From NCBI GenBank assembly GCA_000004985.1, contig GG738847.1: 64,000 nt of DNA, one strand, 5' to 3'. Shown one piece after another: positions 24,343 through 48,192 of the stretch. Within the stretch, counting starts at the first letter, position 1. The number at the start of each line of letters is the position of its first letter. Origin of the DNA: Naegleria gruberi (taxonomy: Eukaryota). The position numbers and the translations under genes are program-made. The notes below the pieces were generated by a model. It had not been told where the DNA came from, did not search any database, and saw nothing but the letters and a program-made list of their open reading frames with translations.

Positions 24343-24351
24343 TTTGGCGCC
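24343..24351. promoter_or_regulatory. E2F-like element TTTGGCGCC, 41 bp upstream of the MSH2 start codon
   Basis: Matches the TTTSSCGC E2F consensus. MSH2 is a classical E2F target. GGCGCC is rare in this AT-rich window. Confidence 0.35.
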
Positions 24352-24402
24352 GTTTGTGAAATATTATTAGTTTGTTGAAACAAGCTGAAAGAGAAACTTT
24401 AT

Positions 24403-27019
24403 TTATCCCATAGCAGTGGCTGGATCAATTTCACCTTCAACTGGCTCTTCATTATTCATAATAATTGGTTCTGGAGATTCAGTTGAGTGATCTGGTTCTT
24501 CTTGAGTACCATCAATTGGATGTTCTTCATTAGTTGGCTCTTCGACTGCAGATGGAACTTCATCAATAGCAGCTGGGACTTCTTGTTTCTTCTTCTTTAA
24601 TTCATTTTTCAATTCCTTAACTTGAGAAACGAAATCCTTTCCTTGGCTGACTGTTCCTTTCCATGATTGGATAACTTCTTTCAATTCATCAGATTTCAAA
24701 ATTTCTTTCAAATTCTTTCCTCTAAGTTTCTTCAATTCTTCAATTGAATTCTTAGCATTCTTATAAGTTTCTACTCCTGATGAAGCAGTATTGGTGATCA
24801 TTTGACCCTTTCTTAAAGATTCCAATAACTTGGCAAGATTCTTATTCTTTCCATTGGTAATTTCATTCAATTGAGAGACAATGTTTTCACCCTTGGAGAA
24901 AGCACCTGCAACATTGTTCAAAACTCCTTGGAGATGTTCAGCATCCAAAACCTTTTTCAAATCTTCCTTCTTGAGATTCTTCAATTGTTCAAGACTTCCC
25001 TTAACACCCTTAGCTCCTTCTAAAATGCTTGATGTGACAGCAGTGACTTTTTGACCCTTTTGCAACTTTTCAACAAGTGAAACCAAAGTCTTACTTCTAC
25101 CATTGGTGAAATCATTAATTTTAGTGACCAAATCTTGAGCACCAGCCAAAGCACCATTCAATTTACCCAAACCTGCTTGAGTATTGTCATAGGTCAAGAG
25201 TTTCTTCAAATCTGAGGATTTCATCTTGGATAATTGTTCAATAGATGACTTGACATTCTTGAATTGTTCAGCAGCAGTGCTACCAATACCAACAGCTTGT
25301 TGTCCCTTTTCCAATTTTTGAATCAACTTGTTCAAGGTCTTGCTCTTTCCACCATTGATGGCACTAACTTGTGAAGCAAATCCTACCCTACCNNNNNNNN
25401 NNNNNNNNNNNNNNNNNNNNNNNNNNNNNNNNNNNNNNNNNNTTCTTACCCAATGATGAGTCGAGTTTACCCAAAGCCTTTTGAATTCCTTCATTGGTGA
25501 GGAGTTTCTTAATGTCAGTACTCTTCAAATTCTTCAAATCCTTGATGGAATTCTTAATTCCCTTAACTCTATCAACAGCAGTGGATCCAGCATTAACAAT
25601 CAATTTACCCTTATCGAGAGCACCAATAATCTTGTTCAACTTTTTGCTCTTTCCACCAGTAACATCATTAACACGAGATAAGATATCTTGAGTCTTTCCA
25701 ATTGTGGAATCGAGTTTACCTAAACCCTTCTTAATATTGGCAGAGGTCAACAACTTTTTCATATCAACATTCTTCAAATTCTTCAAGTTCTTGAGAGAGT
25801 TGAAACCACCGTTCAATCCCTTCAAGGCATCAGTTCCAATGCTAGCAATATTACCTGCCTTGTCTAAACCTTTAGAAATCTTGTTGAGAGCCTTAATTTT
25901 ACCTCCTGTTGTAATAACATTATGTTATTTGAAAAAAAAATAAATATATAATACTGACCTGTCACATTATTCAAGTTGGTAGTAATTTCTTGACCCTTCT
26001 TGATCAAACCAGAAGCCTTATTCAAAAAGTTTGATCCCTTTTCGAACAAGTTAGCTCCCTTAAACAAGTTGGATGGCTTGAGTTGAGAAGCAATATTCTT
26101 GACGCTCAACTTGGAAAGACTACTGGCAACAGATCCACCAGCATTCAAGATCATGGAACCCTTACCCAAAACACCTGAAACCTTTCCAGTAAACTTCAAT
26201 GCCTTGTTGAGGAATTTGGATTTACCACCTTTAATTTTTTGTATTGTAAAAAGTTAGTATTTTGTAAAATGAAAGAAAACAAACCTGTGACAGCGTTCAA
26301 TCCACCAAGAACAGCATTAGCCTTTGAAGCAATAGCAGAAGCTTTGGCAACAATAGCAGCTCCCTTAGCAACAGCACCACCAATACTACCCAAACTACCA
26401 GCCAATGAAACACCTGCCAGATTCAAAAATCCCAAATTTGGAAATTACGAAATTTGCATGTTAACATTCCAATTGAGGAAGGACATTAAAATCTTGTAGA
26501 TTTTTCTAACAACTTACCACCAATACCACCAGTAGCAATAGTCAAAGCAATTGGAGCAATAAATTTACCATACTTTTTGACAACTTTAACAACACCTCTG
26601 GCAACTCTCTTCAAACCTTTACCAACCTTTCTGAAAGCTCTTCCTGCTCTTCTAACAGCACGACCAATTCTTCTGAAGGCTCTTCTGAATCTTCTGAATT
26701 GAGCTTGAGCTTCAGCATCAGATAAAGTAGACATGTATTGAAGTAAAGCATCATCAGCTTCAATGTCAAAGTCAAAATCTTGTAAATCAGCAAGGATACC
26801 ATCCAAATGTTCGTCAAAAGATGGGTGTGAAGCCATTTCTAACATGAATGCTTCATTAGACCAAGAATCAGAAGTTGGTTCGAATAATTCTTGAATAGCT
26901 TCATATTCAATCATTTGTTGAGAAGCTTGGACTGTACGAAGTGACCACGAGCATGTCAAGCATACTGCAAGGATTGTGGCCAAAACAATGGCAAAGGAAA
27001 ATCTTATGGAGCCCTTCAT
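24403..27019 (-). CDS. secreted repetitive protein with AMP-like cationic prodomain; at least 5 exons, interrupted by an assembly gap
   Basis: Exon 1 (26517..27019) encodes a signal peptide (MKGSIRFSFAIVLATILAVCLTCSWS), an acidic propiece (DEHLDGILADLQDFDFDIEADDALL) and then RRFRRAFRRIGRAVRRAGRAFRKVGKGLKRVARGVVKVVKKYGK. Downstream exons begin at about 26413, 26227 and 25905, and every splice falls in phase 1 after a ...VTG codon. They encode a Gly/Ala-rich segment and then ten or more ~69-aa repeats (GGKSKxLNKxxxxLxKGQ...GSTAxE..K..K.SIE.LK.LK..DLKKLLT......LGKL...). The tail is acidic (EEPTNEEHPIDGTQEEPDHSTESPE). The 50-nt N run at 25393..25442 falls within the repeats. Confidence 0.6.
24650..26200 (-). 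repeat. tandem ~207-nt coding repeats (~69-aa units) within the secreted protein gene
   Basis: The LKKLLT / NDVTGGKSK / KGQ motif recurs about every 69 aa in translation. Exon boundaries coincide with repeat boundaries. Confidence 0.6.
25393..25442. other. assembly gap (50 N)
   Basis: Literal run of n characters. Confidence 1.
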
Positions 27020-28031
27020 GATTTTTTTTATGGATGGTTTCTCTGAAGTAACTTGGTTGTCGAGCATTTGGATGTTTCGTATAAGGTTTATTAGTCCGAA
27101 CCAAGATTCGTGTAGGTCGAACTAAACATAGTATTATTGAAGTCTGGCATGGAACAATTCAATAGTAAAATTGTAATTATTGATTCTAATAATAATAAAC
27201 AATTATAATGATGATTGTAAAGATTCTGTAATTTTAACATTGAAAAGAAAATTGAATAAAGAGTAAAAAGGGACAAATAGCAGTTGTTTGGTTAAAAAAG
27301 TATTAAGGAGGTGAACTTGGGTAAAGATGTATCAATTTCTGATTTGTAATGGTACAACATTGAAGCAAATAAAAATAGTATCAAAGACTGTCTTTTACAT
27401 TGCCTTCAACAAATAGCACCAAAGAACAGTAATTAAGAAAACATATAGCTTTAACACAACTCTCAGATAAAAACACTCAGTTAATGATGTTGATTTGAAG
27501 AACGACTGATTTTGTATTGAAACATAACTCTGTTAATGGTAGCTTCTACCATGAATCAATTTCAACTCTTAATTGCCATCTTTATAATAAATAGCTTGAA
27601 CTGTTGTAAAACGAATTTTGTGATTGGTTAACTGTCAATTACAAATTTGTAAAATTAGAAAAGAAATTAAAGATATCTAATAAAAACTTATTAATAACCT
27701 TTTGTTCATCTTCATTATGCATGTGCATTTTGAAACCCTCCACAATGAATTAATTTCAAATAACTCATTTCAACACTTGATCACCTCTTTCAAATATATG
27801 AAAGTTGTAATCAGTTCATCACAATGAAACATTTAACAGTTCAATCAATAACAAATTTTATACACTCGCTGTTAACAGCAAAAAGAAAAAAGTAACGCCA
27901 TTTTCCAACCACTACGACGACAGATTATTGTTGTATTCAGTATCGAATAAAGGCACAAGGTCTAAATTCTTTACACTGTAGTTGGGAGATTTTAAATCCT
28001 CATTGTAAAACATGAGGTTCAAAAATAGAAT

Positions 28032-46506: not shown

Positions 46507-47073
46507 TTTTTTGCTTTTATTTCATTGTGATAACAAGAAGCTTGGTTTTAAAACAATTTCGAGATACAGCCTTAAATTGCGTCTTTGAAAAAGTTTACAA
46601 CAATCTAGATTGTGTTTGGCTTGAATACTTGGAAGGTGAAATGAGCACGAGAGATGCGAGTCGAATGATTTTTTGGAAGGGCACTGTAATGGAAAAGGAC
46701 AAATGCCGTTTGAGAAATAAGCCAACATTCCATCATGAAAGAGGATAAATTCGTTGAGGATTAAGCGGAAGGGAATTGAGAGAATGAAGTAGTAGGGGAC
46801 AGGATGCAACAATTCAAATGGAATAGGGCGAGATATTTTGGAGCACAAATTATGAAAACAGGCGATCAAGCAATCGTGAACTTCAACTACAAGAAGAAAA
46901 GAATCCTTAATATTATTGTTTGTTACTTGATGATATTCATGTTATTGATGCAGATGAGTTGATAGAAAGACACCCGAAATATTTCAATTTGCATTATGCC
47001 ACTTCTTGTATATCACACATGGGATATTACAATTTTCTTGACTATTAGATAGATGGAAAAGATGAATGCTATT

Positions 47074-48152
47074 TTACATCATGCTACACTTTTCATTCTT
47101 GTTGGAAACCTGTAATACTTTTGCATCGTCTTTTAACACTAACTTGAGAATTTCACTGATCGAGTAGGATCCAAGATAATGTCTTCTTCCCAATTGTTCA
47201 AACATGGCCCTCAGACTCGAATTACTGGTGGCGTTCGTTTCAAAAATTTCACTGTTCGAAAGATCATACGTTTTGATTAATTGTCCAAGCTTCTTCTTAT
47301 ACTCATCAACTTGATTTCGATATGTTGGATCTGAATTTGAAAAATCAATCTTATTCAGTGCAAACATGACTGGGAAATCATTCACCACTGCATTCTTTGC
47401 TTTCACAATCAGCTCGATATTAAAAATCAATTCTTGCATAATGAAATTGTCAATGGATGATACCACAACAAAGGCTTGTCTGTATTTCATATACTGTTCT
47501 TTCATTGAACTGAATTCCTCTCCATGAATATCATCATTCAATTCCAATCTAATTGATTTTTCATCCACTCGAATAAATTTCAAATCCACATCTTCTATTG
47601 TTGGATCGTAACTGTTTCATATGATTTAAAGTTATGAAGGATTGGAATGTTTCACAATATTTACATACGTTAAACCATAATTGGAAAAAATTCATGAACA
47701 AATGAATTGATTATACTGGTCTTTCCACTTTTCCTACATCCAGTAACGAATATTCTAATATCTCCTGCTCTATTCTCTGAAACTGGATGCAGTAGTGTTC
47801 TTCTAGCATGTCTTGTCAATAGAATTTTCCTTTTCAAGCAATTCTTCTTAATCATTTCCAACTTTGCTTTTTCAATTTCTTTTGAATTACTTTCTGGTTG
47901 TTCCAATTCGAACACTTTCCACCAAAAATTATTTAAATATTCTCTCATTTCCATTCTAGAATTTAATCGACAACTCAAGCTCTCAAATATGGCCATCATT
48001 CTAATAGAATTTTTAACTGTTCCACGATCGGATAATGATGTGTCCACAACAAATTCTAAAATTTCTATCAAGATTTCACTTGGGATTTGCAGAAATAAAT
48101 TAAATTCTTGAGGGTGGCCATACTGATGTGAGTGTTTCTTGTGTTTCGACAT
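47074..48152 (-). CDS. Ras-like small GTPase with N-terminal F-box-like extension and C-terminal CAAX box; 2 exons, junction unresolved
   Basis: Exon 1 (about 47593..48152) starts at MSKHKKHSHQ. It has an F-box-like segment IPSEILIEILEFVVD and the P-loop VTGCRKSGKTSIINSF. Exon 2 (47074..about 47622) has switch I YDPTIED, a degenerate G3 (DDIHGEE), G4 NKID and a CSMM terminus. No canonical GT..AG pair joins the two frames: a stop follows ...FPIMV and the phases mismatch. Confidence 0.5.
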
Positions 48153-48180
48153 TTTTTTACTGGTTGTTGGAACTTTGGTT

Positions 48181-48192
48181 GTTGGCGCCAAA
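48181..48192. promoter_or_regulatory. E2F-like element TTGGCGCCAAAA, about 30 bp upstream of the GTPase gene start codon
   Basis: GGCGCC core in an AT-rich promoter. Confidence 0.25.

What the first reader, a model, noticed from the sequence alone, without database searches (positions are those of the whole stretch)
24343..48192. Recurrent GGCGCC(AAA) E2F-like elements in the promoters of cell-cycle genes
GGCGCC-containing motifs matching TTTSSCGC are otherwise almost absent from this AT-rich window. They occur directly upstream of MSH2 (24343..24351), of the securin-like gene (40181..40189), in the shared upstream region of MCM5 and its divergent neighbour (33365..33373), in the ODC/repeat-gene intergenic region embedded in a GGCGCGCC palindrome with an inverted CCAAT pair (28032..28051), and upstream of the GTPase gene (48181..48192). 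MSH2, MCM5, securin and ODC are classical E2F/DP-regulated genes in other eukaryotes, so this looks like a conserved cell-cycle cis-regulatory code.
Basis: partly seen in the sequence, partly recalled or inferred. Interest (0 to 1): 0.5.

Follow-up and report, generated by a model that had tools for sequence, protein, structure and literature searches.

The report
E2F-like promoter sites in Naegleria gruberi
A rare GC-rich motif (TTTGGCGCC and close variants) sits just upstream of a few genes in this Naegleria gruberi region, including MCM5, MSH2 and a probable anaphase-regulator gene, and is most likely the binding site of the conserved E2F/DP cell-cycle transcription factors: a familiar mechanism seen here in a little-studied branch of eukaryotes.

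Summary
The window is Naegleria gruberi. GGCGCC occurs 4 times (0.48 expected; 0 of 100 shuffles reach 4) and TTGGCGC 7 times (0.83 expected). All four GGCGCC sites lie within 150 bp upstream of a start codon, a zone covering 6.4% of the window (P about 2e-5).

Gene calls are mostly right. MSH2, MCM5, ODC and a Ras-like GTPase are confirmed. "Securin-like" is a D-box protein with no detectable homology to securin.

Corrections:
- The 33365 site belongs to MCM5's divergent neighbour (122 bp from its ATG, 538 bp from MCM5's).
- An E2F-like site at that position recurs in the MCM5 promoters of four other Naegleria/Willaertia lineages; Acrasis has only a looser variant.
- The ODC element is about 470 bp upstream and an imperfect match.
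- A seventh match (21407) lies inside MSH2 coding sequence.

N. gruberi encodes E2F, DP, DEL and RB (Medina et al. 2016 source data). Against: the MSH2 site is absent in N. fowleri and Willaertia, two or three sites flank genes with no known cell-cycle role, and there are no binding or expression data.

Verdict: probable E2F/DP sites, a new member of a known kind, of modest interest.

The parts
24343..24351 (.). E2F-like site TTTGGCGCC, 42 bp upstream of the MSH2 ATG (24301, minus strand), in a roughly 104-bp intergenic spacer
   Evidence: MSH2 identity.
33857..33871 (.). E2F-like site TTTTGCCGCCAAAAA, 46 bp upstream of the MCM5 ATG (33904). It is the best-supported site, because an E2F-like element recurs at the same position in other heterolobosean MCM5 promoters.
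33365..33374 (.). E2F-like site AGGCGCCAAA (TTTGGCGCCT on the minus strand). It is 122 bp upstream of the ATG (33243) of a K/E/D-rich gene of unknown function and 538 bp from the MCM5 ATG. TAACGG lies 10 bp away.
40179..40189 (.). E2F-like site ATGGCGCCAAG, 51 bp upstream of the ATG (40130) of the D-box protein gene and 271 bp from the amine-oxidase ATG
48181..48192 (.). Near-palindromic E2F-like site GTTGGCGCCAAA, about 30 bp upstream of the ATG (48152) of a Ras-like GTPase gene that has an N-terminal extension
28032..28051 (.). GGCGCGCC palindrome fused to CCAAT, followed by an inverted CCAAT (ATTGG), with a third CCAAT at about 28068. It lies about 470 bp upstream of the ODC ATG (28505). 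An imperfect E2F match (ATTGGCGCG) of uncertain status.
21407..21415 (.). TTTGGCGCG inside the last MSH2 exon, 189 bp upstream of the next gene's ATG. Probably an incidental coding occurrence.
21302..24301 (-). MSH2 gene (two exons). 100% identical to the annotated N. gruberi MutS protein. Best solved-structure match is human MSH2, E = 1.8e-149.
33904..36133 (+). MCM5 gene with short introns (MCM, MCM_lid and MCM5_C domains)
39489..40130 (-). 213-aa protein, probably disordered, carrying a conserved D-box (KRKALGDITN), a DxEN..P motif and an IE[YLF]CP motif. An APC/C-substrate candidate; "securin-like" by motif order only.
47074..48152 (-). Ras-family GTPase gene (two exons) with a 160-aa N-terminal extension
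32440..33243 (-). K/E/D/S-rich gene of unknown function, divergent from MCM5. Its 3' end is not resolved.
28505..29992 (+). Ornithine decarboxylase gene. The ATG at 28505 is supported by the N. fowleri orthologue.

Best explanation
The elements are promoter-proximal binding sites for Naegleria gruberi E2F-family factors (an E2F/DP heterodimer and/or the DEL/E2F7-8-like protein). The site has an SGCGCS core, here mostly GGCGCC, flanked by T or A runs. It sits 30-125 bp before the start codon in very short promoters. By analogy with animals, plants and Dictyostelium, E2F/DP would activate these genes when cells commit to DNA replication, and the RB orthologue would repress them otherwise. This would couple MCM5, MSH2 and a D-box (APC/C-substrate) gene to the cell cycle.

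Shown here: sequence match, enrichment, position, association with these genes, conservation at MCM5, and (from published data) the presence of the factors in the genome.

Inferred: actual binding, RB dependence and periodic expression. Whether the sites at the GTPase, the K/E/D-rich gene and ODC belong to the same programme is open.
For: 1. Enrichment. GGCGCC occurs 4 times against 0.48 expected, and TTGGCGC 7 times against 0.83; no shuffle out of 100 reaches either count.
2. Position. All 4 GGCGCC loci lie within 150 bp upstream of an ATG, a zone that is 6.4% of the window (P = 1.7e-5). For the looser pattern TTSSCGS, 11 of 13 loci are intergenic although genes span 77% of the window.
3. Gene association. 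All 3 recognisable replication, repair or mitosis genes carry a site within 150 bp of the ATG, against 2 of 24 other genes. Fisher P = 0.0034, but the classification was made post hoc.
4. Conservation at MCM5.
   - N. gruberi: TTTTGCCGCCAAAAA at -46.
   - Naegleria sp. L005: CCCGCCAAAA at -37, inside an 83-bp spacer.
   - Naegleria sp. L003/L004: TTTTCCCGCTCAAAA at -59.
   - Willaertia L002: TTCCCGCCAAA at -65.
   - N. lovaniensis L001: ACCCGCCCAAAA at about -65.
   - In L002 (22 kb) and L003 (14 kb) this is the only TTSSCGS-class match in the whole locus.
5. Trans factors. NgruE2F (RRIYD), NgruDP (RRRVYD), NgruDEL and NgruRB appear in the source data of Medina et al. 2016, PMC4862756.
6. Precedents. 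TGGCGCCA is the most over-represented upstream motif in AT-rich C. parvum and is read there as E2F (PMC3734150). Dictyostelium RblA represses msh2 together with S-phase and mitotic genes (PMC3386910).
Against: - The MSH2 promoters of N. fowleri (L006) and Willaertia (L007) have no strict E2F-like match within 220 bp, and L007 has none in 22.9 kb.
- An unidentified relative (L010) has no site within 300 bp of MCM5. Acrasis (L009) has only the variant TTTGGGCGC.
- Two sites precede genes with no known cell-cycle role (a Ras-like GTPase and a K/E/D-rich protein). The ODC element is 470 bp upstream and off-consensus.
- Transcription start sites are unknown.
- The sample is 28 genes, and the "cell-cycle" labels were assigned after seeing the sites.
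- No binding, expression or reporter data exist. Genome-wide enrichment could not be tested with these tools.
Confidence: 0.65

Rival explanations
1. Only the MCM5 site, and perhaps those at MSH2 and the D-box gene, is a real cell-cycle E2F site. The sites at the GTPase, the K/E/D-rich gene and ODC are either E2F-bound for other purposes or not functional. On this reading there is no coherent cell-cycle code across the five listed loci.
For: Cross-species conservation was shown only for MCM5. The GTPase and the K/E/D-rich protein have no cell-cycle domain. The ODC element is distal and imperfect. In C. parvum, E2F-like motifs precede many non-cell-cycle genes (PMC3734150).
Against: The GTPase site (GTTGGCGCCAAA) is the most complete palindromic E2F-type site in the window and lies about 30 bp from the ATG. 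All GGCGCC copies are promoter-proximal, which argues against non-functional copies. Unknown function does not mean the gene is not cell-cycle regulated.
Confidence: 0.25
2. The GGCGCC element is bound by a different, unidentified Naegleria factor, or is a core-promoter or start-site element unrelated to E2F. Its resemblance to the E2F consensus would then be coincidental.
For: No binding data exist. The positions are tightly promoter-proximal (30-125 bp from the ATG), as a core element would be. MSH2 loses the site in relatives. No paper in the searchable library links Naegleria promoters to E2F.
Against: Only about 5 of 28 genes carry it, so it is not a general core element. The flanks (TTT...AAA) and the variants seen at MCM5 orthologues (TTCCCGCCAAA, TTTCCCGC) are exactly the known E2F and E2F7/8 variants, not just GGCGCC. 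N. gruberi E2F, DP and DEL keep the RRxYD base-contacting motif.
Confidence: 0.08
3. The occurrences are chance matches of a short GC-rich palindrome in an AT-rich genome.
For: The motif is short, the window is a single sample, and one match (21407) does lie in coding sequence.
Against: 0 of 100 shuffles reach the observed counts for three pattern definitions. The positional P is 1.7e-5. There is independent recurrence upstream of MCM5 in other species.
Confidence: 0.02

Closest known systems
E2F/DP binding sites of animal and plant G1/S genes (consensus TTTSSCGC; MCM5 and MSH2 among the classical targets)
   Same: The consensus is the same (TTTGGCGCC, TTTGCCGC/TTTGGCGG). The sites are promoter-proximal, work in either orientation, and occur at MCM5 and MSH2. 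The genome carries E2F, DP, DEL and RB with the RRxYD motif.
   Different: Binding, RB dependence and periodic expression are untested in Naegleria. Promoters here are tiny, with spacers of about 80-660 bp. The MSH2 site is not conserved within the genus. The statement that MCM5 and MSH2 are mammalian E2F targets rests on my own knowledge and on references cited in PMC3386910.
E2F-like motif TGGCGCCA over-represented upstream of Cryptosporidium parvum genes (Oberstaller et al. 2013, PMC3734150)
   Same: An AT-rich, compact protist genome with an identical GGCGCC core and T/A flanks, located in short upstream regions and inferred computationally.
   Different: In C. parvum the motif precedes thousands of genes, across 163 of 200 expression clusters, and no RB orthologue is known. 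In this window it is rare (about 5 of 28 genes) and the genome has RB.
RblA/E2F/DP network of Dictyostelium discoideum (Strasser et al. 2012, PMC3386910)
   Same: A free-living amoeboid protist in which the RB axis controls S-phase, mismatch-repair (msh2/3/6) and mitotic genes. That matches the mix of MCM5, MSH2 and a D-box protein seen here.
   Different: The Dictyostelium evidence is genetic and transcriptomic. Here it is sequence only, and the lineage (Discoba, Heterolobosea) is very distant from Amoebozoa.
Securin (PTTG1 / Pds1 / Cut2), as the identity of the gene at 39489-40130
   Same: A small protein with an N-terminal degron region (DxEN..P, then the D-box RKALGDITN), followed by an acidic IE[YLF]CP motif that recalls the EIExxP pseudosubstrate segment of securins. 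The last comparison is from my own knowledge.
   Different: No significant match to securin in Pfam, in solved-structure sequences or by profile comparison; only the 11-residue D-box aligns. There is no true KEN box.

Membership tests
E2F/DP transcription-factor binding site | Sequence matches TTTSSCGC, or an SGCGCS core flanked by T and A runs | tested here: met
   The sites at 24343, 33367(-), 33858 and 48185(-) match TTTSSCGC. The site at 40181 is CTTGGCGCC, with one flank mismatch. The site at 28032 is ATTGGCGCG, off-consensus in the flank.
E2F/DP transcription-factor binding site | More frequent than chance, and located in promoter-proximal DNA | tested here: met
   0 of 100 shuffles reach the observed counts. 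All four GGCGCC sites lie within 150 bp upstream of an ATG, P = 1.7e-5. Transcription start sites themselves are unknown.
E2F/DP transcription-factor binding site | Association with DNA replication, repair or mitotic genes | tested here: inconclusive
   3 of 3 such genes in the window against 2 of 24 others, Fisher P = 0.0034. The sample is small and the labels are post hoc. A genome-wide test was not possible.
E2F/DP transcription-factor binding site | Conservation of the site in orthologous promoters | tested here: inconclusive
   Met for MCM5 in five Naegleria/Willaertia lineages. Acrasis has only a variant and L010 has none. Not met for MSH2 in N. fowleri or Willaertia. Promoters for the other genes could not be obtained.
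E2F/DP transcription-factor binding site | The genome encodes E2F and DP proteins with the DNA-contacting RRxYD motif (and RB) | tested here: met
   NgruE2F (KRRIYD), NgruDP (RRRVYD), NgruDEL and NgruRB sequences are in the source data of PMC4862756. This was taken from the paper, not searched in the genome here.
E2F/DP transcription-factor binding site | Physical binding by E2F/DP, and RB- or cell-cycle-dependent transcription of the target | not testable with these tools
   Needs gel-shift, DAP-seq or ChIP, and expression data from synchronised or arrested cultures.
Securin | APC/C degrons (D-box RxxLxxxxN and a KEN box) in the N-terminal part | tested here: inconclusive
   The D-box KRKALGDITN is invariant across 7 family members. 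The N-terminal motif is DLEN/DPEN, not KEN. One member hits the Pfam Cyclin_N2 APC/C-binding region, E = 2e-4.
Securin | Detectable homology to known securins | tested here: not met
   No Pfam Securin hit. No securin among solved-structure sequences at E up to 10, with a single sequence or with the profile. hhalign aligns only the D-box.
CDE/CHR (DREAM-type) late cell-cycle promoter | A CHR element (TTYGAA) a few bases downstream of a CDE or E2F-like element | tested here: inconclusive
   TTCGAA lies at -24 in the D-box gene promoter, about 30 bp from the E2F-like site rather than the canonical 4 bp. Hexamers like this are common in AT-rich DNA.

The most novel reading that the evidence does not exclude
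The E2F/DP-RB cis-regulatory logic operates in Heterolobosea (Discoba). It would use the same TTTGGCGCC-type site, placed 30-60 bp before the start codon, and would cover replication (MCM5), mismatch repair (MSH2), a lineage-specific APC/C substrate that may be the Naegleria securin, and unexpected targets such as a Ras-like GTPase. This would be the first cis-regulatory element defined for Naegleria. It would also be direct promoter-level evidence that the E2F site, and not only the proteins, goes back to the last eukaryotic common ancestor.
Probability: 0.55. Interest if true: 0.4.

Novelty: new member of a known kind. Interest (0 to 1): 0.3.

Why it matters
If confirmed, this would extend promoter-level evidence for the E2F/DP-RB programme to Discoba, one of the lineages most distant from animals and plants. 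[quoted passage not shown]

It has practical uses as well:
- It gives a first candidate cis-element for Naegleria, where almost nothing is known about transcriptional control.
- It offers a simple way to predict proliferation-linked genes in N. gruberi and the pathogen N. fowleri.
- It flags an unannotated D-box protein family as a candidate mitotic regulator.

It would not change the current understanding of E2F biology.

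Tried and rejected
- **Organism.** I first suspected Cryptosporidium or a dictyostelid from the AT-richness and compact genes. This was rejected. MCM5 is 89% identical to N. lovaniensis and MSH2 is 100% identical to N. gruberi.
- **Synteny-based footprinting.** Gene order around MCM5 is not conserved with N. lovaniensis or Willaertia. Only a loose UPF1 / ThiE-ThiM / MSH2 / ODC neighbourhood is shared with N. fowleri, and the N. fowleri ODC promoter is cut off at the locus end.
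- **Promoters of relatives of the D-box gene.** The only close relative sits on a 923-bp contig with 18 bp of upstream sequence.
- **Metagenome scans** for relatives of MSH2 and of the D-box protein found nothing.
- **More N. gruberi sequence.** Look-ups with three window proteins failed, with no exact product on record.
- **Multiple alignment of MCM5 promoters** is uninformative, because only the motif is shared.
- **The K/E/D-rich neighbour.** No Pfam or NCBIfam hit. The 3' exon structure is unresolved, and there is no relative in the fetched loci.
- **Cao et al. 2010** on RB-E2F evolution does not mention Naegleria. The Naegleria genome paper is not held.
- **The 21407 match** was considered as a promoter site for the downstream cyclase gene. 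It is judged incidental because it lies in the MSH2 coding exon.

Full report
**Origin of the window**

The window is AT-rich (31-38% GC), gene-dense and has short introns. The MCM5 ORF is 89% identical to N. lovaniensis and 82% to Willaertia magna. The MSH2 ORF is 100% identical to the annotated "DNA mismatch repair protein muts [Naegleria gruberi]" on a 941,567-bp contig. The window is therefore Naegleria gruberi (Heterolobosea, Discoba). It contains one 50-base run of N at 25393-25442.

**The observation**

Counts against 100 dinucleotide-preserving shuffles:

| Pattern | Observed | Expected | Shuffles reaching observed |
|---|---|---|---|
| GGCGCC | 4 | 0.48 | 0 of 100 |
| TTTSSCGC | 5 | 1.17 | 0 of 100 |
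| TTGGCGC | 7 | 0.83 | 0 of 100 |

Seven of the ten GCGC tetramers in the 64 kb lie in these elements.

I built a table of about 28 genes from ORFs and Pfam matches. Genes span 77% of the window. All four GGCGCC loci lie in the non-genic zone within 150 bp upstream of a start codon, which is 6.4% of the window (binomial P = 1.7e-5). For the looser pattern TTSSCGS, 11 of 13 loci are intergenic (P = 6e-6), even though intergenic DNA is the more AT-rich fraction.

**Anatomy, site by site**

| Site | Sequence | Nearest gene and distance to its ATG |
|---|---|---|
| 24343 | TTTGGCGCC | MSH2, 42 bp, inside a roughly 104-bp spacer |
| 40181 | ATGGCGCCAAG | 213-aa D-box protein, 51 bp |
| 48181 | GTTGGCGCCAAA | Ras-like GTPase, about 30 bp |
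| 33365 | AGGCGCCAAA | K/E/D-rich gene of unknown function, 122 bp (538 bp from MCM5) |
| 33857-33871 | TTTTGCCGCCAAAAA | MCM5, 46 bp |
| 28032 | GGCGCGCCAATTTTCATTGG | ODC, about 470 bp |
| 21407 | TTTGGCGCG | inside the last MSH2 exon |

It is more naturally the neighbour's site.
- The ODC element reads ATTGGCGCG, so it is outside TTTSSCGC. The ODC start at 28505 is supported by 83% identity from residue 1 to N. fowleri ODC. Three CCAAT motifs accompany this element.
- The 21407 match is probably incidental.
- Orientation relative to the gene varies, as expected for E2F sites.

**Gene identities**

- MSH2 is confirmed: MutS domains II-V, and the best solved-structure match is human MSH2 at E = 1.8e-149, against about 1e-62 for MSH3.
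- MCM5 and ODC are confirmed by Pfam. The GTPase has a Ras-family domain.
- The "securin-like" protein has no Pfam, NCBIfam or solved-structure match.
- An exhaustive HMMER search found six relatives of the D-box protein in all. Their alignment conserves:
  - an N-terminal DxEN..P motif
  - an invariant D-box, KRKALGDITN
  - an IE[YLF]CP motif
  - a block EYPTPvF.EFNP.TG.aED.FvTLsDEKMKE
  - a C-terminal FDDxFNF
- One member hits the cyclin-A APC/C-binding region in Pfam, E = 2e-4.
- A profile search of solved structures and hhalign against human securin align only the D-box.
- I therefore call it an APC/C-substrate candidate. It resembles securin in motif order only.

**Test by comparison with relatives**

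I fetched MCM5 loci from six relatives. The promoters do not align. Even so, an E2F-like element lies at a similar distance from the ATG in most of them:

| Locus | Species | Element | Position |
|---|---|---|---|
| L005 | Naegleria sp. (JGI metagenome contig) | CAGCCCGCCAAAATT | -37, in an 83-bp spacer |
| L003/L004 | Naegleria sp. (Logan and ENA contigs) | TTTTCCCGCTCAAAA | -59 |
| L002 | Willaertia magna | TTGTTCCCGCCAAATT | -65 |
| L001 | N. lovaniensis | TTACCCGCCCAAAA | about -65 |
| L009 | Acrasis kona | TTTGGGCGC (looser variant) | about -45 |
| L010 | unidentified relative | none | within 300 bp |

In the 22-kb Willaertia locus and the 14-kb L003 locus, this is the only TTSSCGS-class match anywhere. 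Its position in a 100-bp target is therefore very unlikely by chance. This is the strongest single piece of evidence for function.

The same test fails for MSH2. N. fowleri (L006) and Willaertia (L007) have no strict match within 220 bp, and L007 has none in 22.9 kb. These species are distant, with MSH2 only 53% and 47% identical, so site turnover is plausible. Conservation is nevertheless not shown.

Orthologous promoters for the other genes could not be obtained.

**Trans-acting factors**

The source data of Medina et al. 2016 (PMC4862756) include:
- NgruE2F (…[21 protein letters not shown]…)
- NgruDP (…IRRRVYDALNVL…)
- NgruDEL, an E2F7/8-like protein
- NgruRB

These retain the RRxYD motif. 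I know this motif (from my own knowledge) as the element that contacts the CGCG core. The factors are therefore present.

**Explanation**

The most likely reading (confidence about 0.65) is that these are E2F-family binding sites in minimal promoters. They would link at least MCM5, and probably MSH2 and the D-box protein gene, to proliferation through the E2F/DP-RB axis.

Shown here:
- consensus match
- enrichment
- promoter-proximal position
- gene association (3 of 3 against 2 of 24; Fisher P = 0.0034; labels post hoc)
- conservation at MCM5
- presence of the factors

Inferred: binding, RB control and periodic expression.

Rival readings:
- **Mixed picture (about 0.25).** Only some sites serve the cell cycle.
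- **A different factor or a core-promoter element (about 0.08).** This is disfavoured because only about 5 of 28 genes carry the site, and because the variants at MCM5 orthologues are the known E2F and E2F7/8 variants.
- **Chance (about 0.02).**

**Comparison with what is known**

- The site is the same as the animal and plant E2F consensus.
- It is the same as the TGGCGCCA motif reported as the most over-represented upstream motif in Cryptosporidium parvum (PMC3734150).
- The target mix parallels the Dictyostelium RblA regulon, which includes msh2, S-phase and mitotic genes (PMC3386910).
- I found no paper in the searchable library that describes E2F sites, or any defined cis-element of this kind, in Naegleria. 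That library is incomplete.

I class this as a new member of a known kind.

**Verdict**

It is a credible but unsurprising extension of a well-known regulatory system to Heterolobosea. It rests on one well-conserved case (MCM5) plus local statistics, and it needs a genome-wide scan and binding data. Interest 0.3.

Noticed in passing
window 33857-33871: MCM5 has its own E2F-like site (TTTTGCCGCCAAAAA), 46 bp before its ATG. It is the site that is conserved across heterolobosean MCM5 promoters.
   Followed up: yes
L001 about 9940-9960; L003 about 9000-9020; window 33381-33386: In N. lovaniensis and Naegleria sp. L003, the MCM5 E2F-like site is immediately followed by AAAACCGTTAA, which contains the Myb-type core CCGTTA/TAACGG. 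In the window, TAACGG lies 10 bp from the 33365 site, and TAACGG/CCGTTA occurs only 6 times in 64 kb. This may be a composite E2F plus Myb-like element.
   Followed up: partly
window 39489-40130 (-); proteins P0124-P0130: An unannotated protein family found only in a handful of sequences. It has an invariant D-box (KRKALGDITN), DxEN..P, IE[YLF]CP and a conserved EYPTPvF.EFNP.TG.aED.FvTLsDEKMKE block. It is a candidate lineage-specific APC/C substrate or securin analogue.
   Followed up: partly
window 28032-28505: About 470 bp separate the GGCGCGCC / triple-CCAAT cluster from the ODC ATG. The stretch 28100-28504 is open in the ODC frame but has no ATG and does not look coding. It may be a long regulatory 5' leader, as in the ODC genes of other eukaryotes.
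   Followed up: partly
window 36547-37050 (-): A 168-aa ORF matches the bacterial nucleoid-associated YbaB/EbfC DNA-binding family (Pfam E = 2.3e-7). This is unusual in a eukaryotic nuclear genome. It may be an organelle-targeted protein or an acquired gene.
   Followed up: no
window 47673-48152 (-): The Ras-like GTPase carries a 160-aa N-terminal extension containing LQIPSEILIEILEFV. By eye this looks like an F-box, but there is no significant Pfam hit.
   Followed up: partly
window 25393-25442: A 50-base run of N (assembly gap) lies inside a gene for a repetitive protein with units of about 60 residues (24406-26253, minus strand).
   Followed up: partly
window 40325-40335 (about 200 bp upstream of the D-box gene ATG, about 120 bp upstream of the amine-oxidase ATG): TTGGGCGGGA is the same TTTGGGCG-type variant seen upstream of MCM5 in N. 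lovaniensis and Acrasis. It may be a second, degenerate E2F-like site in this shared intergenic region.
   Followed up: no
L005 7991-8003: In the Naegleria sp. metagenome contig, the 54-bp divergent spacer between Nup35 and EXOSC1 contains TTGGCGGCAA. This is the same GCCGCC-type variant as the N. gruberi MCM5 site.
   Followed up: no
window 10756-24301 compared with L006: A loose gene neighbourhood (UPF1, ThiE/ThiM fusion, MSH2, with ODC nearby) is shared between N. gruberi and N. fowleri, but with different order and orientation. Around MCM5 there is no shared synteny.
   Followed up: partly
window 16141-21218 (-): A large gene combines TmcB-type TPR repeats, a PAS domain and an adenylate/guanylate cyclase catalytic domain. 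It starts only about 85 bp after the MSH2 stop codon.
   Followed up: no
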